From the sequence record MZ833439.1: a DNA stretch of 38,824 nucleotides. One strand, given 5' to 3'. Below, in pieces: positions 1-38,824 of the stretch. Each line of letters begins with the position of its first letter. The first letter of the stretch is position 1. The stretch is from Enterobacteria phage AH67C600_Q5. The notes under the pieces were generated by a model, which was not told the origin of the DNA, did not search any database, and was given only the letters and a program-made list of their open reading frames with translations. A program made the position numbers and the translations under genes.

Positions 1-77
1 CATACCTAAAGACCATACCTAAAGACCATACCTAAAGACCATACCTAAAGACCATACCTAAAGACCATACCTAAAGA
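1..77. repeat. Tandem array of a 13-bp unit (catacctaaagac), about 6 copies, truncated by the window start; same unit as the array at the window end
   Basis: Direct reading: catacctaaagac repeated head-to-tail from position 1. Resembles the CCTAAAG-containing left-end repeats of T7. Confidence 0.9.
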
Positions 78-137
78 TGCCTTGTTGTTACCTATAAAGA
101 GATTATCTTTAATCATTGTCTTTTAATCACTCCCATT

Positions 138-8664: not shown

Positions 8665-9084
8665 GTGGAGCTGCGGGAGAAAATCCTTGAGAGAGTCAAG
8701 GTGACTTCCGCTGGATGTTGGGAGTGGCAGGGTGCTACGAACAGTAAGGGATACGGACAGGTGTGGTGTAGTGACACCGGAAAGGTGGTGTACTGCCACC
8801 GAGTAATGTCTAATGCCACGAAAGGTTCTACAGTCCTGCACTCCTGTGATAATCCATTATGTTGTAACCCTGAACACCTATCCATAGGAACTCCAAAAGA
8901 GAACTCCGCCGACATGGTAAATAAGGGTCGCTCACACAAGGGGTATAAACTTTCAGATGAAGACGTAATGGCAATCATGGAGTCCAGCGAGTCCAATGCT
9001 TCATTAGCTCGTGCCTATGGTGTCTCCCAACAGACGATTTGTGATATACGCAAGGGGAGGAGATATGGCAGGCTACGGCGCTAA
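8665..9084 (+). CDS. 2.8: HNH homing endonuclease (T7 gene 2.8 position)
   Basis: 139-aa ORF, GTG start; HNH-type motif HSCDNPLCCNPEHL plus C-terminal HTH-like region; paralogous to ORFs at 11759, 18823 and 37496. Confidence 0.8.
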   Translation: MELREKILERVKVTSAGCWEWQGATNSKGYGQVWCSDTGKVVYCHRVMSNATKGSTVLHSCDNPLCCNPEHLSIGTPKENSADMVNKGRSHKGYKLSDEDVMAIMESSESNASLARAYGVSQQTICDIRKGRRYGRLRR

Positions 9085-9514
9085 AGGTATTCGAAAGGTT
9101 GGAGCGTTTCGCTCTGGCCTAGAGGACAAGGTTTCACAACAGTTGGAATCAAAAGGTATTAAATTTGAGTATGAAGAATGGAAAGTACCTTACGTAATTC
9201 CGGCGAGCAATCATACTTACACACCAGACTTCCTACTGCCCAACGGAATATTCGTTGAGACAAAGGGTCTGTGGGAAAGCGACGATAGAAAGAAGCACCT
9301 ATTAATAAGAGAGCAACACCCTGAGTTAGACGTTAGAATTGTCTTCTCAAGCTCACGTACCAAGTTATACAAAGGCTCTCCAACGTCCTATGGAGAGTTT
9401 TGCGAAAAGCATGGCATTAAGTTTGCTGATAAACTAATACCTGCTGAGTGGCTAAAGGAACCTAAGAAGGAGGTCCCCTTTGATAAATTAAGAAAGAAAG
9501 GAGGAAAGAAATAA
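9065..9514 (+). CDS. 3: Endonuclease I, Holliday-junction resolvase (gene 3)
   Basis: MAGYGAKGIRKVGAFRSGLEDKVSQQLESKGIKFEYEEWKVPY..., near-identical to T7 gp3; start refined to the internal ATG of track ORF 9011..9514. Confidence 0.93.
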   Translation: MAGYGAKGIRKVGAFRSGLEDKVSQQLESKGIKFEYEEWKVPYVIPASNHTYTPDFLLPNGIFVETKGLWESDDRKKHLLIREQHPELDVRIVFSSSRTKLYKGSPTSYGEFCEKHGIKFADKLIPAEWLKEPKKEVPFDKLRKKGGKK

Positions 9515-11758: not shown

Positions 11759-12187
11759 ATGAGCACTGACTTAGAGAGACTTGAAAGATTCTTGAAGATT
11801 GATGGCGATTGCTGGCTGTTCACTGGTGGCAGGGCACATGCCTACGGAGTCTTCTGGATGGGCGGTAAGAATCACAAGGCACATAGGGCTGCCTTCGAAC
11901 TTTATAATGGGAGGAAACCTAATGGTGTTATATTACACTCTTGTGATAATCCTTTGTGCTGCAATCCCGCTCATCTATCTGAGGGAACTCAGCTTGATAA
12001 TATGGTGGACATGGTTAGAAAGGGACGCTCGTTAAAGGGTACGAAGAATCCCGCATGTAAGTTTACCGATGAGGATGTCAAGTTCATTCAGGAGTCTACC
12101 ATGAAGGTCAAAGATTTAGCCACTCTATTCGGAGTGACGCGCCAAACAATAACCAAATGGAGGAAACATCATGTTCAAACTGATTAA
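11759..12187 (+). CDS. HNH homing endonuclease between phi4.3 and gene 4.3
   Basis: 142 aa from ATG 11759 (MSTDLERLERFLKIDGDCWLF...HSCDNPLCCNPAHL...); the track ORF 11594..12187 is an artifactual N-terminal extension into gene 4. Confidence 0.85.
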   Translation: MSTDLERLERFLKIDGDCWLFTGGRAHAYGVFWMGGKNHKAHRAAFELYNGRKPNGVILHSCDNPLCCNPAHLSEGTQLDNMVDMVRKGRSLKGTKNPACKFTDEDVKFIQESTMKVKDLATLFGVTRQTITKWRKHHVQTD

Positions 12188-13170: not shown

Positions 13171-15129
13171 ATGATCGTTTCTGACATCGAAGCTAACGCC
13201 CTCTTAGAGAGCGTCACTAAGTTCCACTGCGGGGTTATCTACGACTACTCCACCGCTGAGTACGTAAGCTACCGTCCGAGTGACTTCGGTGCGTATCTGG
13301 ATGCGCTGGAAGCCGAGGTTGCACGAGGCGGTCTTATTGTGTTCCACAACGGTCACAAGTATGACGTTCCCGCATTGACCAAACTGGCTAAGTTGCAATT
13401 GAACCGAGAGTTCCACCTTCCTCGTGAGAACTGTATTGACACACTTGTGTTGTCACGCTTGATTCACTCCAACCTGAAAGACACCGATATGGGCCTGCTG
13501 CGTTCCGGTAAGTTGCCCGGTAAACGCTTTGGGTCTCACGCTTTGGAGGCGTGGGGCTATCGCTTAGGTGAGATGAAGGGTGAATACAAGGATGACTTTA
13601 AGCGTATGCTTGAAGAGCAAGGTGAAGAATACGTTGACGGAATGGAGTGGTGGAACTTCAACGAAGAGATGATGGCCTATAACGTTCAGGACGTTGTGGT
13701 CACTAAGGCTCTCCTTGAGAAGCTACTCTCTGATAAACATTACTTCCCTCCTGAGATTGACTTTACGGACGTAGGATACACTACGTTCTGGTCAGAATCC
13801 CTTGAGGCCGTTGATGTTGAACATCGCGCTGCGTGGCTACTCGCTAAGCAAGAGCGCAATGGATTCCCGTTTGACACGAAAGCAATCGAAGAGTTGTACG
13901 TAGAGTTAGCTGCCCGTCGCTCTGAGTTGCTACGTAAATTGACCGAAACGTTCGGCTCGTGGTATCAACCTAAGGGTGGTACAGAAATGTTCTGCCATCC
14001 GAGGACTGGTAAACCACTTCCCAAGTATCCTCGCATTAAGACACCTAAAGTTGGTGGTATCTTTAAGAAGCCTAAGAACAATGCACAGCGAGAAGGCAGA
14101 GAGCCTTGTGAACTGGATACCCGTGAATACGTTGCTGGTGCTCCGTATACTCCAGTAGAGCACGTAGTGTTTAACCCTTCGTCTCGTGACCACATCCAGA
14201 AGAAACTCCAAGAGGCTGGATGGGTCCCAACCAAGTACACCGATAAGGGTGCTCCTGTGGTGGACGATGAGGTACTCGAAGGAGTACGTGTAGACGACCC
14301 TGAGAAGCAAGCTGCTATCGACCTCATTAAAGAGTACCTGATGATTCAGAAGAGAATCGGTCAGTCTGCTGAGGGAGACAAGGCGTGGCTTCGTTACGTT
14401 GCCGAGGACGGTAAGATTCATGGTTCTGTTAACCCTAATGGAGCAGTTACGGGTCGTGCTACCCATGCGTTCCCCAACCTTGCGCAAATTCCGGGTGTAC
14501 GTTCTCCTTATGGTGAGCAGTGCCGCGCTGCTTTTGGCGCTGAACATCACTTAGATGGACTTACAGGTAAGCCTTGGGTTCAGGCTGGTATAGACGCCTC
14601 CGGTCTGGAGTTACGTTGCTTGGCCCACTTCATGGCTCGCTTTGATAACGGTGAGTATGCTCACGAGATTCTTAATGGTGACATTCACACTAAGAATCAG
14701 ATAGCTGCCGAATTGCCTACCCGTGATAACGCCAAGACGTTCATCTATGGGTTCCTTTATGGTGCTGGTGATGAGAAGATTGGGCAGATTGTTGGTGCTG
14801 GTAAAGAGCGCGGTAAGGAACTCAAGAAGAAATTCCTTGAGAACACCCCTGCGATTGCGGCACTCCGAGAGTCTATCCAACAGACACTCGTTGAGTCATC
14901 TCAGTGGGTAGCTGGTGAACAGCAAGTCAAGTGGAAACGCCGCTGGATTAAAGGACTTGATGGGCGCAAAGTCCATGTCCGTAGTCCTCATGCTGCCCTG
15001 AACACCTTGCTGCAATCTGCTGGTGCTCTTATCTGCAAACTGTGGATTATCAAGACCGAAGAGATGCTCTTAGAGAAAGGCTTGAAGCATGGCTGGGATG
15101 GGGACTTTGCGTACATGGCATGGGTGCAT
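13171..15129 (+). CDS. 5: DNA polymerase (gene 5) exon 1, codons 1-653
   Basis: Family A polymerase near-identical to T7 gp5 up to ...[11 protein letters not shown], then leaves the T7 reading frame; the uninterrupted ORF stops 8 codons later at 15153. Confidence 0.95.
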
Positions 15130-15730
15130 AAACTATCTCATTGTGCACATTAAATCTGGTGAACTCGGTGAAACCCTTCTAGGGCAATACCGAGCCAAGC
15201 CATAGGGAGGATATATGAGAGGCAAGAAGTTAATCCTTGCGACCACAGAGAGTGGTTGTATCATCCCTACGTCACACAAACTTAATACTGATGGTTATTT
15301 CCGAAAGAAGACGAACGGTGTCCTAGAGATGTATCACAGGACAGTCTGGAAGGAACACTACGGAGATATACCAGAAGGGTATGAAGTAGACCACAAGTGT
15401 AGGAACAGGGCGTGCTGTAACGTAGAGCACCTCCAGTTATTAGAAGGTTCTGAGCATACAGTCAAGACAAACAGGGAACGATACGCTGACCGTAAAGATT
15501 CCGCGAAGGAATACTGGTTGGAGACTGGATGTACAGGAACACACTTAGGTGAGAAGTTTGGTGTAACGTTCTCTGCCGCTTGTAAGTGGATTAGAGAGTG
15601 GAAGGCGTAGAGACTATCCGAAAGGAGTAGGGCCGAGGGTGAGATTCCCTCGTTACCCGAAGCGCCAGACAGTCAACTCAAAGGCTGATGATATAGTCCG
15701 ACACTCCTAGCAATAGGAGAATACAGAAAG
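15130..15730 (+). mobile_element. Group I self-splicing intron interrupting gene 5, carrying an HNH ORF
   Basis: 601-bp interruption between codons His653 and Asp654; exon 1 ends in U (15129); candidate internal guide gtgcac at 15143-15148 can pair with exon end gugcau including a U-G wobble at the splice site; intron ends in G (15730); exons join in frame to a 704-aa product. Confidence 0.85.
15215..15610 (+). CDS. Intron-encoded HNH homing endonuclease
   Basis: 131-aa ORF with RBS gggagg upstream; motifs EVDHKCRNRACCNVEHL typical of HNH endonucleases; lies entirely inside the intron. Confidence 0.85.
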   Translation: MRGKKLILATTESGCIIPTSHKLNTDGYFRKKTNGVLEMYHRTVWKEHYGDIPEGYEVDHKCRNRACCNVEHLQLLEGSEHTVKTNRERYADRKDSAKEYWLETGCTGTHLGEKFGVTFSAACKWIREWKA

Positions 15731-18559: not shown

Positions 18560-18826
18560 ATGGGTAAGAAAATTAAGAAGGCCGTTAAGAAAGTCGTTAA
18601 GGAAGTGGCTCGTCCGATTAAACAGGTTGCTGGTGGCATTGCCGGTCTGGCTGGCGGGCAAGTATTGGAAGTTCCACAGGCTGCTGCACAGATTGTTGAC
18701 GCGCCTGAGAAAGAGGTTTCCACTGAGGACGAAGCACAGACCGAAAGCGGACGTAAGAAAGCTCGCGCTGGTGGTAAGAAGTCATTAAGTGTGGCTCGTA
18801 GCTCAGGTGGGGGTATAAATATATGA
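18560..18826 (+). CDS. 7.3: gp7.3 tail-associated protein
   Basis: 88-aa Lys/Ala-rich ORF MGKKIKKAVKKVVKEVARPIKQVAGGIAGLAGG... Confidence 0.85.
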   Translation: MGKKIKKAVKKVVKEVARPIKQVAGGIAGLAGGQVLEVPQAAAQIVDAPEKEVSTEDEAQTESGRKKARAGGKKSLSVARSSGGGINI

Positions 18827-19218
18827 CAGATTGTATCGAGTGGACTGGCTACCTCACAAAAGATGGGTACGGCGAAACTCGACTGAATGGTGTCAAGTTT
18901 AGGGTTCATCGTCTAGAATGGGTGAAACAAAGAGGCCCAATACCTGAAGGTCTAGTTGTTCGCCATAAGTGCGATAACCCTAAATGTTACAATATCGAAC
19001 ACCTTGAGCTAGGAACAACTCAGGATAACACTAGAGATAGGGTCTTGAGGAATAGAAGCGCAAAGGGAGTACGTAATGGTAATTCCAAATTAACACCCGA
19101 TGTCGTTCTGGCAATACGTGCAAGTAGTAAGACCCACAAGCTGATAGCCGAAGAGTTCGGTGTATCCAAATCAGTTGTGACACAGATACGAGCACGTAAG
19201 ACATGGAGGCATATCTAA
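18823..19218 (+). CDS. 7.7: HNH homing endonuclease (T7 gene 7.7 position)
   Basis: 131-aa ORF with HKCDNPKCYNIEHL motif and C-terminal HTH-like region. Confidence 0.85.
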   Translation: MTDCIEWTGYLTKDGYGETRLNGVKFRVHRLEWVKQRGPIPEGLVVRHKCDNPKCYNIEHLELGTTQDNTRDRVLRNRSAKGVRNGNSKLTPDVVLAIRASSKTHKLIAEEFGVSKSVVTQIRARKTWRHI

Positions 19219-21817: not shown

Positions 21818-22168
21818 AGACTCTCAACTTGCCGGATTCATCCAATGAGAACATTACTGGCCTTGGGTCCGCATCGGTCATTGAGACTACTCAGGCTAAG
21901 ACTCGCTGGAACCTCTCGCGCTAATACCGATGGTCAGAAACATGGCTTCCCAGAAGGCGTTGGCGGTAACAACAAGGTGGCTAAAATCAACGTTATCGGC
22001 CTGTTCATGCACCGCTCTGCGGTTGGTACTGTGAAACTGCGTGACTTGGCTCTGGAGCGCGCTCGCCGTGCTAACTTCCAAGCTGACCAGATTATCGCTA
22101 AGTACGCAATGGGCCACGGTGGTCTGCGCCCAGAAGCTGCTGGTGCAGTGGTTTTCAAAGCGGGGTAA
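21818..22168 (+). pseudogene. 10: Remnant of the major capsid protein gene (gene 10): about 115 of about 345 codons, in two different frames
   Basis: In the frame from 21820, NENITGLGSASVIETTQAK resembles T7 gp10 NENIEGLGTATVIETTQNK and then hits a stop at 21919-21921; in the +1 frame, [87 protein letters not shown] matches the gp10 C-terminus. No N-terminal half, no start codon, no RBS, no promoter. Confidence 0.85.
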
Positions 22169-35242: not shown

Positions 35243-35686
35243 ATGCTGGAATTTTTACGTAAGCTGGTCCCTTGGGTTCTCGCTGGGATGCTATTCGGAT
35301 GGGGATGGCAACTTGGGGCAGACTCAATGGACGCCAAGTGGAAACAGGAGGTACAGAATGAGTACGTTAAGAGAGTTGAGGCTACAGCGAGCACTCAAAG
35401 AGCACTCAATGAAATATCGGCTAAGTATCAAGAAGACCTTGCCGCGCTGGAAGGGAGCACTGATAGGATTATTTCTGATTTGCGTAGCGACAATAAGCGG
35501 TTGCTCGTCAGAGTCAAAACTACCGGAACCTCCGATGGTGAGTGTGGATTCGAGCCTGATGGTCGAGCCGAACTTGACGACCGAGATGCTAAACGTATTC
35601 TCGCAGTGACCCAAAAGGGTGACGCTTGGATTCGTGCCCTACAGGACACTATACGAGAACTACAGCATAAGCAGGAGGTTAAGTAA
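35243..35686 (+). CDS. 18.5: i-spanin (Rz-like, gene 18.5)
   Basis: 147-aa ORF with N-terminal TM segment ([15 protein letters not shown]) and coiled-coil periplasmic domain. Confidence 0.88.
35358..35609 (+). CDS. 18.7: o-spanin (Rz1-like, gene 18.7), embedded in the +1 frame of 18.5
   Basis: 83 aa from ATG 35358 with lipobox-like [13 protein letters not shown] and proline-rich segment; fully nested in gene 18.5. Confidence 0.75.
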   Translation: MSTLRELRLQRALKEHSMKYRLSIKKTLPRWKGALIGLFLICVATISGCSSESKLPEPPMVSVDSSLMVEPNLTTEMLNVFSQ

Positions 35687-37458
35687 TGAGGAAAGGTGTA
35701 TCCACTCAGTCCAATCGTAATGCGCTCGTTGTGGCGCAACTAAAGGGTGACTTCGTGGCGTTCCTGTTCGTCTTATGGAAGGCGTTAAACCTACCAGTGC
35801 CTACTAAGTGTCAAATTGACATGGCTAAGGTACTGGCGAATGGGGACAACAAGAAGTTCATCTTACAGGCTTTCCGTGGTATCGGTAAGTCATTCATCAC
35901 CTGTGCGTTCGTTGTGTGGTCCTTATGGAGGGACCCTCAGTTGAAGATACTTATCGTATCAGCTTCTAAAGAACGTGCAGACGCTAACTCCATCTTTATT
36001 AAGAACATCATTGACCTGCTACCGTTTCTCAGTGAGTTGAAGCCGAGACCCGGACAGCGTGACTCTGTGATTAGTTTTGATGTTGGTCCTGCTAGTCCTG
36101 ACCACTCGCCTAGTGTGAAATCAGTGGGTATCACTGGTCAGTTAACTGGTAGTCGTGCTGACATTATCATTGCGGATGACGTTGAGATTCCGTCTAACAG
36201 TGCTACTATGGGTGCCCGTGAGAAGCTATGGACTCTCGTTCAGGAGTTCGCTGCGTTACTTAAACCACTGCCTTCTTCTCGTGTTATCTATCTTGGTACA
36301 CCTCAAACTGAGATGACTCTCTATAAGGAACTTGAAGATAACCGTGGGTACACCACTATCATCTGGCCTGCTCTATACCCAAGGACACGCGAAGAGAACC
36401 TCTATTACTCACAGCGTCTTGCTCCTATGCTACGTGCTGAGTACGATGAGAACCCTGAGGCACTCGCTGGGACTCCTACGGACCCTGTGCGCTTCGACCG
36501 TGATGACCTCCGTGAGCGTGAGTTGGAATACGGTAAGGCTGGCTTCACACTACAGTTCATGCTTAACCCGAACCTGAGTGATGCCGAGAAGTACCCTCTG
36601 AGGCTCCGTGACGCTATCGTAGCGGCCTTAGACTTAGAGAAGGCACCAATGCATTACCAATGGCTTCCGAACCGTCAGAACATCATTGAGGACCTTCCTA
36701 ACGTGGGCCTTAAGGGTGACGACCTGCATACATACCATGAGTGCTCAAATAACTCTGGTCAGTATCAACAGAAGATTCTGGTCATTGACCCTAGTGGTCG
36801 CGGTAAGGATGAAACAGGTTACGCTGTACTGTACACCCTCAACGGTTATATCTACCTTATGGAAGCTGGAGGTTTCCGTGATGGCTACTCCGATAAGACT
36901 CTTGAGATGCTCGCTAAGAAAGCTAAGCAATGGGGAGTCCAGACGGTTGTCTACGAGAGTAACTTCGGTGATGGTATGTTTGGTAAGGTATTCAGTCCTA
37001 TCCTTCTTAAACACCACAACTGCGCGATGGAGGAGATTCGTGCTCGTGGTATGAAGGAGATGCGTATTTGTGATACCCTTGAGCCAGTCATGCAGACTCA
37101 CCGCCTTGTCATTCGAGATGAGGTCATTCGGGCAGACTATCAGTCCGCTCGTGACATAGACGGTAAGCATGACGTTAAGTATTCACTGTTCTACCAGATG
37201 ACTCGTATCACTCGTGAGAAAGGTGCTCTGGCCCACGATGACCGATTGGATGCCCTTGCGTTAGGCGTTGAGTATCTCCGTGAGTCCATGCAGTTGGATT
37301 CCGTTAAGGTCGAAGGTGAAGTGCTTGCTGACTTCCTTGAGGAACACATGATGCGTCCTACAGTTTCTGCTACCCACATCATTGAGATGTCTGTAGGAGG
37401 AGTTGATGTGTACTCTGAGGACGATGAAGGGTACGGTACGTCTTTCATTGAGTGGTGA
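35686..37458 (+). CDS. 19: Terminase large subunit / DNA maturation protein B (gene 19)
   Basis: 590-aa ORF; T7 gp19 homolog with ATPase and nuclease domains. Confidence 0.96.
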
Positions 37459-37495
37459 TTTATGAGGCCAAGGAAGGCCGCTTTAAGGAGGTAAT

Positions 37496-37939
37496 ATGAT
37501 AAGCAAGAAGAAGTATGTTATCGATAAGGAGACTGGTTGCTGGAACTTTAGGGGATGTAAGACGAAGACTGGTTATGGTCGCATTCGTGTGAACGGAGTC
37601 CATTGGATGGCCCACAGGTATTCCCTGAGTTGTCATCTAGGCAGACCGATAGCTGACGGAATGGTTGTGATGCACCTATGTGATAATCCTTCATGTGTTA
37701 ACCCTGAGCACCTTAAGGAAGGGACTCAGAAGGAGAACATAGAGGACTGCATCTCAAAAGGTCGTGCAACTAAGTCCACAGGTAAACGTGATGCAACTAA
37801 GAGAGACCCTAGCGAGGAACGTAAGGCTATAGTGATTCGAAGATACCATAAAGGCTGGACCGCAACGTCCATAGCGAGATACCATAAGCTCTCTGTGGCG
37901 TGGGTAAAGAGGGTCATTGAGGATTACCTAAGTGATTGA
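37496..37939 (+). CDS. HNH homing endonuclease between gene 19 and phiOR
   Basis: 147-aa ORF with RBS aaggagg; MHLCDNPSCVNPEHL motif and C-terminal HTH-like region; paralog of the 8665, 11759 and 18823 ORFs. Confidence 0.85.
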   Translation: MISKKKYVIDKETGCWNFRGCKTKTGYGRIRVNGVHWMAHRYSLSCHLGRPIADGMVVMHLCDNPSCVNPEHLKEGTQKENIEDCISKGRATKSTGKRDATKRDPSEERKAIVIRRYHKGWTATSIARYHKLSVAWVKRVIEDYLSD

Positions 37940-37990
37940 TATTTGAAATTAGTGATACAGGTCTAAGTATATGATTACAGACCATTATTC

Positions 37991-38013
37991 TAATTCGACT
38001 CACTATAGGGAGA
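37991..38013 (+). promoter_or_regulatory. T7-RNAP promoter phiOR-like (taattcgactcactatagggaga)
   Basis: Only remaining 23-mer with the full class III-type tatagggaga 3' half; carries T instead of A at -13. Confidence 0.8.
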
Positions 38014-38103
38014 AGCCTACCTAAAGATTACTATAAGACTTAAAGTTACCTATAAGGTAGGTTGTTATTATTGTTAATACAACCAACATAAAGGAGGAGA
38101 CTC

Positions 38104-38253
38104 ATGTTCCGCTTATTGTTGAACCTACTGCGGCATAGAGTCACCTATCGCTTTCTTGTGGTACTTTGTGCTGCCCTTGGGTACGCATCGCTTAACGGAG
38201 ACCTCAGTTCACTGGAGTCTACCGTTTGCTCTTTACTCACTTGTAGTGATTAA
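38104..38253 (+). CDS. 19.5: gp19.5 small membrane protein
   Basis: 49-codon ORF MFRLLLNLLRHRVTYRFLVVLCAALGYASLNGDLSSLESTVCSLLTCSD matching T7 gp19.5. Confidence 0.75.
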   Translation: MFRLLLNLLRHRVTYRFLVVLCAALGYASLNGDLSSLESTVCSLLTCSD

Positions 38254-38493
38254 GGTCTTACTGACCGACTGATGGCTCACCGAGGGATTCAGCGGTATGA
38301 TTGCATCACACCACTTCATCCCTATAGAGTCAAGTCCTAAGGTATACCCTATAAAGAGCCTCTAATGGTCTATCCTAAGGTCTATACCTAAAGATAGGCC
38401 ATCCTATCAGTGATGCCTAAAGAGTTGCTTAGAGAGGGCCTAAGGAGTCCCTAGAGGGTCCTTTAAAATATACCATAAAAATCTGAGTGACTA

Positions 38494-38657
38494 TCTCACA
38501 GTGTAAGCGCCCAAAGTTCCCCCCATAGGGGTACCCAAAGTCACTCCTTTGGAGTGCCGGACCTTGAGGTGGCCTTAAAGTGGGCCTTGAGGTGGACCGA
38601 AGGAGGGTCCTAGTGATACCGTGGGGAGTGTCTCCTTGTCCCTATCTGTTCAGCCTC
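38494..38657. repeat. Sequence corresponding to the direct terminal repeat of a T7-like linear genome (single collapsed copy); physical genome ends inferred here
   Basis: tctcacagtgta...ccctatctgtt resembles the T7 left-end terminal repeat, preceded by right-end-type sequence (ataccataaaaatctgagtgacta). Confidence 0.7.
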
Positions 38658-38753
38658 CTAAAGTCACCTCCTAAAGTCATTCTACCGTCTACAGCCTAAA
38701 GACTACACCTAAAGACCCATTCAGTCAATCCCTATCTTAAAGATAATCCTAAA

Positions 38754-38824
38754 GACCATACCTAAAGACCATACCTAAAGACCATACCTAAAGACCATAC
38801 CTAAAGACCATACCTAAAGACCAT
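38754..38824. repeat. Tandem array of the 13-bp unit (accatacctaaag), about 5.5 copies, truncated by the window end; continuous with the array at 1-77
   Basis: Direct reading; preceded at 38650-38750 by dispersed cctaaag motifs as in the T7 left end. Confidence 0.9.

What the first reader, a model, noticed from the sequence alone, without database searches (positions are those of the whole stretch)
37459..38103. Right-end region between terminase and phiOR carries an HNH gene near the packaging and concatemer-processing sequences
The 645 bp between the gene 19 stop and gene 19.5 hold a 147-aa HNH ORF and phiOR with an A-to-T change at -13. In T7 this interval is recalled as non-coding and is involved in concatemer junction processing. 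A nuclease gene inserted here, next to the terminal repeat, is unusual and could affect or exploit packaging.
Basis: inference. Interest (0 to 1): 0.35.

Follow-up and report, generated by a model that had tools for sequence, protein, structure and literature searches.

The report
Known homing-endonuclease gene after T7-like terminase
The extra gene between the terminase gene and the right-end promoter is an ordinary selfish "homing" nuclease gene, already annotated at this same spot (as gene 19.4) in many T7 relatives, and nothing suggests it takes part in DNA packaging.

Summary
Gene 19 stops at 37458. A 147-aa ORF (37496-37939) with a strong ribosome-binding site follows. Next comes phiOR (37991-38013, TAATTCGACTCACTATAGGGAGA, T at -13), then gene 19.5 at 38104. 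T7 has only 258 non-coding bp in this interval.

The feature is not new. The protein is 100% identical to one in phage HZP2, and the same gene is annotated as gene 19.4 "HNH endonuclease" in phage 13a. About 29 of 180 matching phage records carry it. Homologues of about 50% identity occupy the same slot in Berlin-like Yersinia, Pectobacterium, Salmonella and Klebsiella phages.

It has an HNH_3 nuclease domain plus a C-terminal helix-turn-helix. Its predicted fold is closest to I-HmuI, and it is under purifying selection (dN/dS 0.09). It is a paralogue of the genome's four other HNH genes, including the one in the gene 7.7 slot.

The whole intergenic region (37465-38081) is a distinct allele: a backbone about 70% identical to T7's plus an insert of about 485 bp. 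Its edges are sharp and flanking SNPs show no linkage to it. The gene lies upstream of phiOR, so the phiOR-to-concatemer-junction unit is untouched.

Best reading: a free-standing homing endonuclease cassette. No activity has been tested. Separately, the window lacks all class III promoters and most of gene 10, which looks like vector-trimming damage.

The parts
35686..37458 (+). Gene 19, terminase large subunit (left flank, context)
   Evidence: 590-aa ORF. Homologous records annotate it as terminase large subunit / DNA packaging protein B.
37465..38081 (+). The HEG+ allele of the 19-19.5 intergenic region. This is the stretch in which every HNH-bearing genome differs from every HNH-less genome.
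   Evidence: The first fixed difference lies 7 nt after the gene 19 stop and the last lies 23 nt before the 19.5 ATG. No fixed difference occurs in 2.45 kb to the left or 0.47 kb to the right. The post-ORF part is found only in HNH-bearing records.
37466..37479 (+). Small stem-loop GGCC-AAGGAA-GGCC after the gene 19 stop. It is the counterpart of T7 GACCA-CGGA-TGGTC.
   Evidence: The position is kept and the stem sequence changes with compensation in four lineages. Function unknown.
37485..37491 (+). Shine-Dalgarno sequence AAGGAGG of the HNH ORF
   Evidence: Read directly from the sequence. It lies 4 nt before the ATG.
37496..37939 (+). HNH homing-endonuclease-type gene (147 aa), orthologue of phage 13a gene 19.4
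   Evidence: Pfam HNH_3 + HTH_23 and PHROG 6254. 100% identical to HZP2 and 68% to 13a gp19.4. Invariant residues C15, H40, R41, H60, C62, N64, C67, N69, H72, N81. Model pLDDT 89.9 with best fold match I-HmuI 1u3e. dN/dS 0.09.
37991..38013 (+). phiOR, T7-RNA-polymerase promoter with T at -13 (+1 = 38008)
   Evidence: One mismatch to the consensus. All 8 Teseptimavirus loci whose HNH is 92-100% identical, and 13a, have this exact 23-mer. Vi06, with a 67%-identical HNH, also has T at -13 but differs downstream (TAATTCGACTCACTATTAGGGGA). It is annotated as phiOR in 13a.
38016..38061 (+). Inverted repeat CCTACCT ... AGGTAGG in the phiOR leader
   Evidence: 7-nt arms, 100% complementary, 32 nt apart.
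38059..38084 (+). Stem-loop GGTTGT(T)ATTA...TAATACAACC just upstream of the 19.5 ribosome-binding site
   Evidence: Seen. Other lineages have a stem-loop at the same place with different stem sequences.
38104..38253 (+). Gene 19.5 (right flank, context)
   Evidence: NCBIfam T7_gp19.5 equivalog, 84 bits.
38494..38643 (.). Terminal repeat, present as a single collapsed copy. Limits are inferred by homology to 13a, not measured.
   Evidence: Alignment to the annotated terminal repeat of 13a.
38644..38650 (+). ATCTGTT, the concatemer-junction pause/termination signal for T7 RNA polymerase
   Evidence: It aligns with the 13a 'concatemeric junction' feature. The role of the pause in packaging is stated in PMC3276506.

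Best explanation
The ORF is a free-standing homing endonuclease gene of the I-HmuI-like HNH_3 + helix-turn-helix type. It is the local copy of the gene annotated as 19.4 in phage 13a. It has its own ribosome-binding site but no promoter. There is no terminator between gene 19 and the ORF, so it should be translated from the late read-through transcripts that also carry gene 19 (inferred).

In a cell co-infected by a relative carrying the T7-type, HNH-less intergenic region, the enzyme would nick or cut that relative's DNA. The most likely target is the T7-type spacer between the gene 19 hairpin and phiOR, which the insertion interrupts in the HNH-bearing allele (inferred). Recombinational repair templated on the HNH-bearing genome would then copy the whole allele, with crossovers resolving in the highly conserved end of gene 19 and the start of gene 19.5.

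The allele carries its own working equivalents of everything the phage needs there: the post-19 hairpin, phiOR and the leader hairpin. The nuclease gene sits upstream of phiOR. Transcription from phiOR through gene 19.5 to the concatemer-junction pause site, and therefore replication and packaging functions, are not disturbed. T at -13 of phiOR is simply the version of the promoter that belongs to this allele.
For: Family and integrity:
- Pfam HNH_3 and HTH_23 score above their cut-offs, and PHROG 6254 gives E=3e-60.
- The catalytic and Zn-site residues are invariant in 36 homologues.
- A confident model (pLDDT 89.9) has I-HmuI as its best PDB match (prob 1.0, E=8e-4), followed by I-PpoI.
- dN/dS is 0.09, with dS (0.25) like that of neighbouring gene 19 (0.22).

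Mobility signature:
- 29 of 180 matching records carry the gene. Sister isolates differ: vB_Yep_9 versus vB_Yep_15, and ESh6 versus ESh1.
- HNH status is unlinked to any of 611 variable sites in 2.45 kb to the left or to any site in 0.47 kb to the right, and the allele boundaries are sharp.
- Homologues of about 50% identity sit in the same slot, always between gene 19 and phiOR, in other genera.
- Four paralogues occupy other intergenic or intron slots in the same genome.

Cassette nature:
- The post-ORF non-coding part occurs only with the HNH gene.
- With about 485 bp removed, the backbone is about 70% identical to the T7 type while flanking genes are 92-98% identical.

Expression: no sigma-70-like promoter or terminator-like site lies on the + strand of the interval.

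General model: free-standing, promoter-less endonuclease cassettes in intergenic regions are reviewed in PMC2988022.

T at -13 occurs in other annotated 13a promoters, phi3.8 and phi4.7.
Against: No nuclease activity, cleavage site or homing has been shown for this protein or any orthologue. A search for papers on gene 19.4 found nothing.

Free-standing endonucleases often cut hundreds of bp from their own gene (PMC2988022). Here the flanks carry no difference that would protect the HNH-bearing genome, so the target assignment to the replaced spacer is an inference by elimination.

The ORF's dS is as large as that of gene 19. This indicates long residence rather than a recent sweep, so current mobility is not demonstrated.

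The Foldseek TM-score to I-HmuI is modest (0.44). Sequence similarity to 1u3e is not significant on its own (E=0.75).
Confidence: 0.85

Rival explanations
1. The HNH protein is an accessory factor of the terminase, as in HK97-like phages. It would help cut concatemers at or near the terminal repeat.
For: The gene lies directly after the terminase large-subunit gene and about 0.55 kb before the terminal repeat. It would be co-expressed with gene 19, because no promoter or terminator lies between them.
Against: Most close relatives, T7 and phiA1122 included, lack the gene and have near-identical terminases of 97-99% identity. There is no match to the Pfam HNH family PF01844; the matches are to the homing-type HNH_3 with a sequence-reading HTH. 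The best fold match is a homing endonuclease. The gene has paralogues in four unrelated slots of the same genome.
Confidence: 0.04
2. The nuclease is kept because it benefits the phage as a weapon. It would cut competing T7-like genomes (marker exclusion) or act as a DNA-binding regulator at phiOR, and its own copying would be secondary.
For: Purifying selection is strong (dN/dS 0.09) and the gene's age is similar to that of neighbouring genes. This fits a retained function better than a purely parasitic element in decay. The same slot is occupied in several genera. Marker exclusion by homing endonucleases is established in T-even phages (PMC2988022).
Against: The molecular mechanism is the same as homing, so the sequence data cannot separate the two readings. 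The patchy distribution among sister isolates argues against a strong general benefit. There is no evidence for an operator-like site.
Confidence: 0.08
3. The ORF is an inactive remnant of a homing endonuclease that persists only because deleting it would damage neighbouring signals.
For: No activity has ever been shown. The synonymous divergence between alleles shows that the element is old.
Against: All seven close alleles are full-length with no stop codon. The catalytic and Zn residues are invariant. dN/dS is 0.06 in the nuclease half and 0.15 in the DNA-binding half.
Confidence: 0.03

Closest known systems
Gene 19.4 of Escherichia phage 13a (EU734174 / NC_011045, 'HNH endonuclease'), and the identical or near-identical genes of HZP2, HZ2R8, pO111, N30, CICC 80001, IME390 and JeanTinguely ('putative homing endonuclease')
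   Same: Same slot, gene 19 stop -> HNH -> phiOR with T at -13 -> 19.5. Same ribosome-binding site and the same flanking non-coding backbone. The protein is 100% identical to HZP2, 99% to HZ2R8 and 92-98% to the others.
   Different: Against 13a and Vi06 the N-terminal nuclease half is about 95% identical, but the C-terminal DNA-binding half is strongly diverged (68% identity overall). There are therefore at least two subtypes of the cassette, and this window carries the commoner HZP2 type.
HNH genes in the same slot of other Studiervirinae: Yersinia phages Berlin, Yepe2 ('gp7.7 homolog'), Yep-phi and the fPS series (Gp045); Salmonella BP12A; Pectobacterium PP74; Klebsiella cp31
   Same: A homologous protein of 49-55% identity over more than 90% of its length sits between the terminase gene and the right-end phage promoter. 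PMC5923468 calls it a homing endonuclease that is unusual among late genes.
   Different: These are different genera with different promoter variants. Their phiOR has A at -13.
T7 gene 7.7-type HNH proteins, including the other HNH_3 genes of this genome in the 2.8, post-gene-4, gene-5-intron and 7.7 slots
   Same: Same HNH_3 family. The window copies show 29-44% identity at E = 2e-7 to 6e-18. The Vi06 and Yepe2 annotators named the right-end gene after 7.7.
   Different: They sit in different genomic slots. The 7.7-type proteins align over the nuclease half only, whereas the right-end gene has its own C-terminal HTH.
I-HmuI (PDB 1u3e), intron-encoded HNH nicking homing endonuclease of Bacillus phage SPO1
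   Same: Best structural match. It shares the order of elements: N-terminal beta-sheet, HNH motif, then C-terminal helix-turn-helix.
   Different: Sequence similarity is not significant (E=0.75) and the TM-score is 0.44. I-HmuI is intron-encoded, whereas this gene is free-standing. Whether this enzyme nicks or makes double-strand cuts is unknown.
T4 MobE and other free-standing, promoter-less homing endonuclease cassettes (PMC2790892, PMC2988022)
   Same: An HNH family gene in an intergenic region between conserved genes. It has no promoter of its own and rides on an existing transcript. The neighbouring promoter is preserved.
   Different: There is no detectable close sequence relationship. 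For MobE, activity, target (nrdB) and mobility are demonstrated. Here none of these is.
HK97 gp74-type HNH proteins that work with terminase
   Same: An HNH nuclease gene next to terminase genes, near the genome end.
   Different: The HNH family differs: no PF01844 match, and an HTH is present. The gene is dispensable in the lineage, because most relatives lack it. It lies after, not before, the terminase genes.

Membership tests
HNH_3 / I-HmuI-like homing endonucleases | HNH (beta-beta-alpha-metal) nuclease motif with conserved His and Asn residues and the Cys/His zinc site | tested here: met
   Pfam PF13392 scores 35.2 bits against a cut-off of 24.8. H60, N64, N69, H72, N81, C15, C62 and C67 are invariant in 36 homologues.
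HNH_3 / I-HmuI-like homing endonucleases | Separate sequence-reading DNA-binding module (helix-turn-helix) joined to the nuclease | tested here: met
   Pfam HTH_23 scores 27.4 bits against a cut-off of 24.6 at residues 104-145. The model has three helices at 105-146 joined by a low-confidence linker.
HNH_3 / I-HmuI-like homing endonucleases | Fold resembles a solved homing endonuclease | tested here: met
   Foldseek against PDB ranks 1u3e (I-HmuI) first at E=8e-4, prob 1.00 and TM 0.44, with I-PpoI next. The match is modest.
HNH_3 / I-HmuI-like homing endonucleases | Site-specific nicking or cleavage of DNA | not testable with these tools
   This needs purified protein and a substrate. No paper on this protein was found.
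Free-standing homing endonuclease gene (mobile cassette) | Presence/absence polymorphism at one fixed locus among closely related genomes | tested here: met
   29 of 180 records carry it, and sister isolates differ. In a panel of 9 HNH-bearing and 8 HNH-less loci the gene is always in the same slot.
Free-standing homing endonuclease gene (mobile cassette) | Exchange independent of the flanking genes (recombination at the cassette borders) | tested here: met
   No flanking SNP is linked to HNH status in 2.45 kb to the left or 0.47 kb to the right. The borders lie 7 nt after the gene 19 stop and 23 nt before the 19.5 ATG.
Free-standing homing endonuclease gene (mobile cassette) | A target site in HNH-less genomes that is absent or altered in HNH-bearing genomes | tested here: inconclusive
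   The only fixed differences lie in the replaced intergenic region. This is compatible with a target there, but no site was identified.
Free-standing homing endonuclease gene (mobile cassette) | Above-input inheritance in mixed infections that depends on the nuclease | not testable with these tools
   This is an experiment: a T7 x 13a or HZP2 cross with an H60A control.
Orthologues of phage 13a gene 19.4 | Homologous protein in the same synteny (gene 19 - HNH - phiOR - 19.5) | tested here: met
   BLASTP gives E=1e-74 and 68% identity over the full length. The 13a record annotates the same order of features.
Terminase-associated HNH proteins (HK97 gp74 type) | Conserved in all packaging-competent relatives, as expected for a required factor | tested here: not met
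   It is absent from T7, phiA1122, EG1 and most other matching records.
Terminase-associated HNH proteins (HK97 gp74 type) | Small HNH protein of the Pfam PF01844 type without a sequence-specific DNA-binding domain | tested here: not met
   There is no PF01844 hit at E<=1, and the HTH domain is present.

The most novel reading that the evidence does not exclude
The enzyme's recognition site may lie in the T7-type spacer and promoter just upstream of phiOR. In that case it would cut rival genomes, in mixed infections, inside the unit that drives polymerase to the concatemer-junction pause site and starts packaging. Homing would then be coupled to shutting rivals out of capsids. T at -13 of phiOR, also seen in one HNH-less variant allele (L040: CAATTCGAC...), would be an immunity change.
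Probability: 0.07. Interest if true: 0.5.

Novelty: already known. Interest (0 to 1): 0.15.

Why it matters
It matters little for discovery. The gene has been in public annotation since the phage 13a record, and this window's copy is identical to that of phage HZP2.

Two modest points may be useful. First, the 19-19.5 interval of T7-like phages exists as discrete, freely recombining alleles. The nuclease always sits upstream of phiOR. This marks the gene 19-to-phiOR spacer as a slot that tolerates added DNA without disturbing the replication and packaging signals, which could help phage engineering. Second, none of the HNH genes in this slot has been tested experimentally, so a simple T7 x 13a cross would be a cheap test of homing in the T7 group.

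Tried and rejected
- **Simple insertion into T7 sequence: rejected.** Alignment shows that the whole interval from 7 nt after the gene 19 stop to 23 nt before the 19.5 ATG differs. Once about 485 bp are removed, a backbone about 70% identical to T7 is recognisable, with the hairpins and phiOR in register.
- **Co-conversion tracts in the flanks: none found.** Maximum allele separation was 0.62 at one of 611 variable sites.
- **T(-13) as a mutation tied specifically to the nuclease: weakened.** It is fixed in the Teseptimavirus HNH-bearing alleles. It also occurs in an HNH-less allele (L040), while Berlin-like HNH-bearing phages have A. T at -13 also occurs in other annotated promoters.
- **Terminator or host promoter that would isolate the ORF transcriptionally: none found on the + strand.**
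- **Known RNA families in 37300-38824 or anywhere in the window: none found.**
- **Papers on 'gp19.4' or 'gene 19.4': nothing relevant.** Papers on T7 phiOR, hairpins and concatemer processing were not in the searchable library. My statements on a requirement for phiOR in packaging therefore rest on PMC3276506 and on my own recollection of the Hinkle, Fujisawa and Studier work.
- **Sequence search of PDB: only a non-significant I-HmuI hit.** The fold search was needed.
- **'phiOR is the only class-III-type promoter in this genome': rejected as biology.** See the trimming artefact under things noticed in passing.

Full report
**Observation**

The region reads as the first-stage reader described it.
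- The 590-aa ORF at 35686-37458 is gene 19, which homologous records annotate as terminase large subunit.
- A 645-bp interval follows. It holds a 147-aa ORF at 37496-37939, preceded by AAGGAGG.
- Next is a T7-RNA-polymerase promoter at 37991-38013, TAATTCGACTCACTATAGGGAGA, which differs from the 23-nt consensus only by T for A at -13.
- Gene 19.5 starts at 38104 and matches NCBIfam T7_gp19.5 at 84 bits.
- In T7 (NC_001604) the same interval is 258 bp, has no annotated ORF, and contains a consensus phiOR.

**What the ORF is**

- It matches Pfam HNH_3 (35.2 bits, cut-off 24.8) at residues 39-81 and HTH_23 (27.4 bits, cut-off 24.6) at residues 104-145. It also gives a just-sub-threshold match to the zinc-binding loop of homing endonucleases, and PHROG 6254 'HNH endonuclease' at E=3e-60.
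- A search of 5.8 billion proteins gave 135 homologues at E<=1e-5.
- In an alignment of 36 of them, C15, H40, R41, H60, C62, N64, C67, N69, H72 and N81 are invariant.
- An AlphaFold model built on that alignment is confident (pLDDT 89.9). It shows a beta-rich N-terminal part, the HNH element, a flexible linker and a three-helix C-terminal domain.
- Its best PDB match is the HNH homing endonuclease I-HmuI (1u3e, prob 1.00, E=8e-4, TM 0.44), followed by I-PpoI. The C-terminal helices resemble resolvase/Fis-type helix-turn-helix domains.
- Among seven close alleles dN/dS is 0.09: 0.06 in the nuclease half and 0.15 in the DNA-binding half. dS is 0.25, similar to the 0.22 of the adjoining part of gene 19. 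The protein is therefore intact and under selection.

**It is already known**

- A 1-kb query around the ORF finds 180 phage records. In 29 of them the whole query aligns, and many annotate the ORF as 'HNH endonuclease' or 'putative homing endonuclease'.
- Phage 13a (EU734174 / NC_011045) names it gene 19.4. Its record lists gene 19, gene 19.4, promoter phiOR, gene 19.5 and the terminal repeat in that order.
- The window's protein is 100% identical to that of phage HZP2 and 99% to HZ2R8.
- It is 68% identical to 13a gp19.4. The first 84 residues are almost identical and the DNA-binding half is strongly diverged, so at least two subtypes of the gene exist.
- Homologues of 49-55% identity sit between the terminase gene and the right-end phage promoter in Yersinia phages Berlin, Yepe2, Yep-phi and the fPS series, Salmonella phage BP12A, Pectobacterium phage PP74 and Klebsiella phages.
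- I found no paper that tests any of these proteins.

**Anatomy of the allele**

The HNH-bearing region is not T7 sequence with an ORF dropped in.
- In alignments of the window and 13a with T7 and phiA1122, similarity stops a few bases after the gene 19 stop. It resumes at the ribosome-binding site of 19.5.
- In a panel of nine HNH-bearing and eight HNH-less Teseptimavirus loci, the first fixed difference lies 7 nt after the gene 19 stop and the last lies 23 nt before the 19.5 ATG (window 37465-38081).
- Outside those limits no site is associated with HNH status. This holds for 611 variable sites in 2.45 kb to the left and for all variable sites in 0.47 kb to the right.
- The 186 bp after the ORF, including phiOR with T at -13 and its leader, occur in the phage collection only in records that also have the HNH gene.
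- The eight panel loci with a 92-100%-identical HNH, and 13a, have the exact 23-mer TAATTCGACTCACTATAGGGAGA. Vi06 also has T at -13 but differs downstream.
- If about 485 bp (ribosome-binding site, ORF and about 30 bp after it) are removed, the rest aligns with the T7-type interval at about 70% identity. The neighbouring genes are 92-98% identical by comparison.
- That residual alignment keeps several elements in register: a small hairpin after gene 19 (window GGCC-AAGGAA-GGCC, T7 GACCA-CGGA-TGGTC), phiOR, a CCTAAAG block, and a hairpin just upstream of the 19.5 ribosome-binding site.

The HNH-bearing allele is therefore a diverged version of the intergenic region, with the nuclease gene inserted between the post-19 hairpin and phiOR. 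It is exchanged as a unit by recombination in the conserved flanks. One HNH-less locus (L040) has a third variant of the spacer and a promoter reading CAATTCGAC..., so T at -13 is not exclusive to HNH-bearing genomes. T at -13 also occurs in the annotated 13a promoters phi3.8 and phi4.7.

**Relation to packaging signals**

- By homology to 13a the terminal repeat is window 38494-38643. The polymerase pause/termination signal ATCTGTT of the concatemer junction is at 38644-38650.
- The nuclease gene lies upstream of phiOR in the 10 HNH-bearing loci scanned for the promoter and in 13a. This covers Teseptimavirus, the Salmonella phage BP12A (L013) and the Berlin-like Yersinia phage Yep-phi (L014).
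- The transcription unit from phiOR through 19.5 to the pause site is therefore unchanged by its presence.
- No host-type promoter or terminator-like site lies on the + strand of the interval. The ORF should therefore be expressed from late read-through transcripts together with gene 19, which is an inference.

**Mechanism**

The pieces match the description of a free-standing homing endonuclease cassette as reviewed for T4 (PMC2988022; PMC2790892):
- an intact nuclease with a sequence-reading domain;
- a fixed intergenic slot;
- patchy presence among sister isolates (vB_Yep_9 versus vB_Yep_15, and ESh6 versus ESh1);
- sharp recombination borders;
- no promoter of its own;
- four paralogues elsewhere in the same genome.

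The likely sequence of events is as follows. The enzyme cuts or nicks the HNH-less allele in a co-infecting relative. Repair is then templated on the HNH-bearing genome. Resolution occurs in gene 19 and gene 19.5.

Where it cuts is not shown. Free-standing enzymes can cut far from their gene. Here, however, the flanks offer no difference that would protect the carrier genome, which points by elimination to the replaced spacer. Alternatively, the enzyme may touch both alleles, as I-HmuI does (my recollection).

**Rivals**

- *Terminase helper of the HK97 type.* This is contradicted by the gene's absence from most relatives with 97-99% identical terminases, by the domain family and by the paralogues.
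- *Retained competitive weapon or regulator.* Sequence data cannot separate this from homing.
- *Dead remnant.* This is contradicted by dN/dS and the invariant catalytic residues.

**Side finding on the window itself**

- The window is a circularly permuted genome with one collapsed copy of the terminal repeat, broken inside the 13-bp CCTAAAGACCATA array.
- Compared with 13a it lacks short stretches at four class III promoters: phi6.5 (30 bp), phi9 (26 bp), phi13 (31 bp) and phi17 (about 50 bp), each covering the promoter. It also lacks phi10 together with gene 10 codons about 1-146 and 172-257.
- A diverged 25-codon patch and codons 258-344 of gene 10 remain.
- The surviving promoters all lack the exact 20-mer TAATACGACTCACTATAGGG. 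phiOR survives only because of T at -13.
- This is the pattern expected if stretches matching the T7 promoter primer and the gene 10 fragment of expression vectors were removed during contamination screening (inference). A phage without its major capsid gene would not be viable.
- It does not affect the finding. It does mean that phiOR's status as the only class-III-like promoter in the window is an artefact.

**Verdict**

The feature is a known, annotated but experimentally untested homing-endonuclease cassette. Interest is low.

Noticed in passing
window ~17576, ~20824, 21830-21903, ~25303, ~32885: All five class III T7 promoters are missing relative to phage 13a. phi6.5, phi9 and phi13 show gaps of 26-31 bp, phi17 a gap of about 50 bp, and phi10 is lost together with gene 10 codons about 1-146 and 172-257. 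The major capsid gene is therefore truncated. Only promoters containing the exact 20-mer TAATACGACTCACTATAGGG are gone. This looks like removal of cloning-vector or primer matches, not biology.
   Followed up: partly
window 1-80 and 38494-38824: The window is a circular permutation of a linear genome with the terminal repeat collapsed to one copy (about 38494-38643 by homology to 13a). The break falls inside a 13-bp CCTAAAGACCATA tandem array that continues from the window's end to its start.
   Followed up: yes
window 38059-38084 (also T7 L030 ~2649-2674, L043, L013, L014, L045): A stem-loop with an A+T-rich loop lies just upstream of the gene 19.5 ribosome-binding site. It is kept in five lineages with different, mutually compensating stem sequences: GGTTGT/ACAACC, GGTGAT/ATCACC, GGTGGTG/CACCACC, GGGATG/CATCCC and GAGGGATGG/CCCATCCTC. 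In the window-type allele the predicted fold also pairs the 19.5 Shine-Dalgarno region (z = -2.4 to -2.8). There is no Rfam family, and the function is unknown.
   Followed up: partly
window 37466-37479: A second small hairpin lies after the gene 19 stop: GGCC-AAGGAA-GGCC. Its counterparts have changed stems in T7 (GACCA-CGGA-TGGTC), L043 (GGCC-ACGGAA-GGCC) and L045 (GCCAC-ATGGAG-GTGGC). The HNH insert begins right after it.
   Followed up: partly
window 8713-9156, 11810-12043, 15215-15610, 18823-19218: The genome holds four more HNH_3 paralogues of the right-end gene (29-44% identity, E = 2e-7 to 6e-18). They lie in the slot after gene 2.5, after gene 4, at the position of the 13a gene 5 intron-encoded HNH (13a 14660-15055), and in the gene 7.7 slot. 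Rfam at gathering threshold did not report a group I intron in the window.
   Followed up: partly
window 37750-37936 versus L004 (13a) 37900-38103: The right-end HNH gene is itself mosaic. The nuclease half is about 95% identical between the window type and the 13a/Vi06 type, but the C-terminal helix-turn-helix half is strongly diverged. This suggests domain-level exchange or a different target preference.
   Followed up: no
L040 2448-2560 (IMGVR_UViG_2974585177_000001): This HNH-less locus has a third variant of the gene 19-phiOR spacer and a promoter CAATTCGACTCACTATAGGGAGA (T at -13, C at -17), followed by a T7-type leader. It may be a recombinant or a target-site variant.
   Followed up: no
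L035 3842 (HZP2) versus window 138: In HZP2 the left-end promoter phiOL reads TAATTCGACTCACTATAGGGAGA, identical to phiOR with T at -13. The window's phiOL is TAATACGACTCACTAAAGAGAGA.
   Followed up: no
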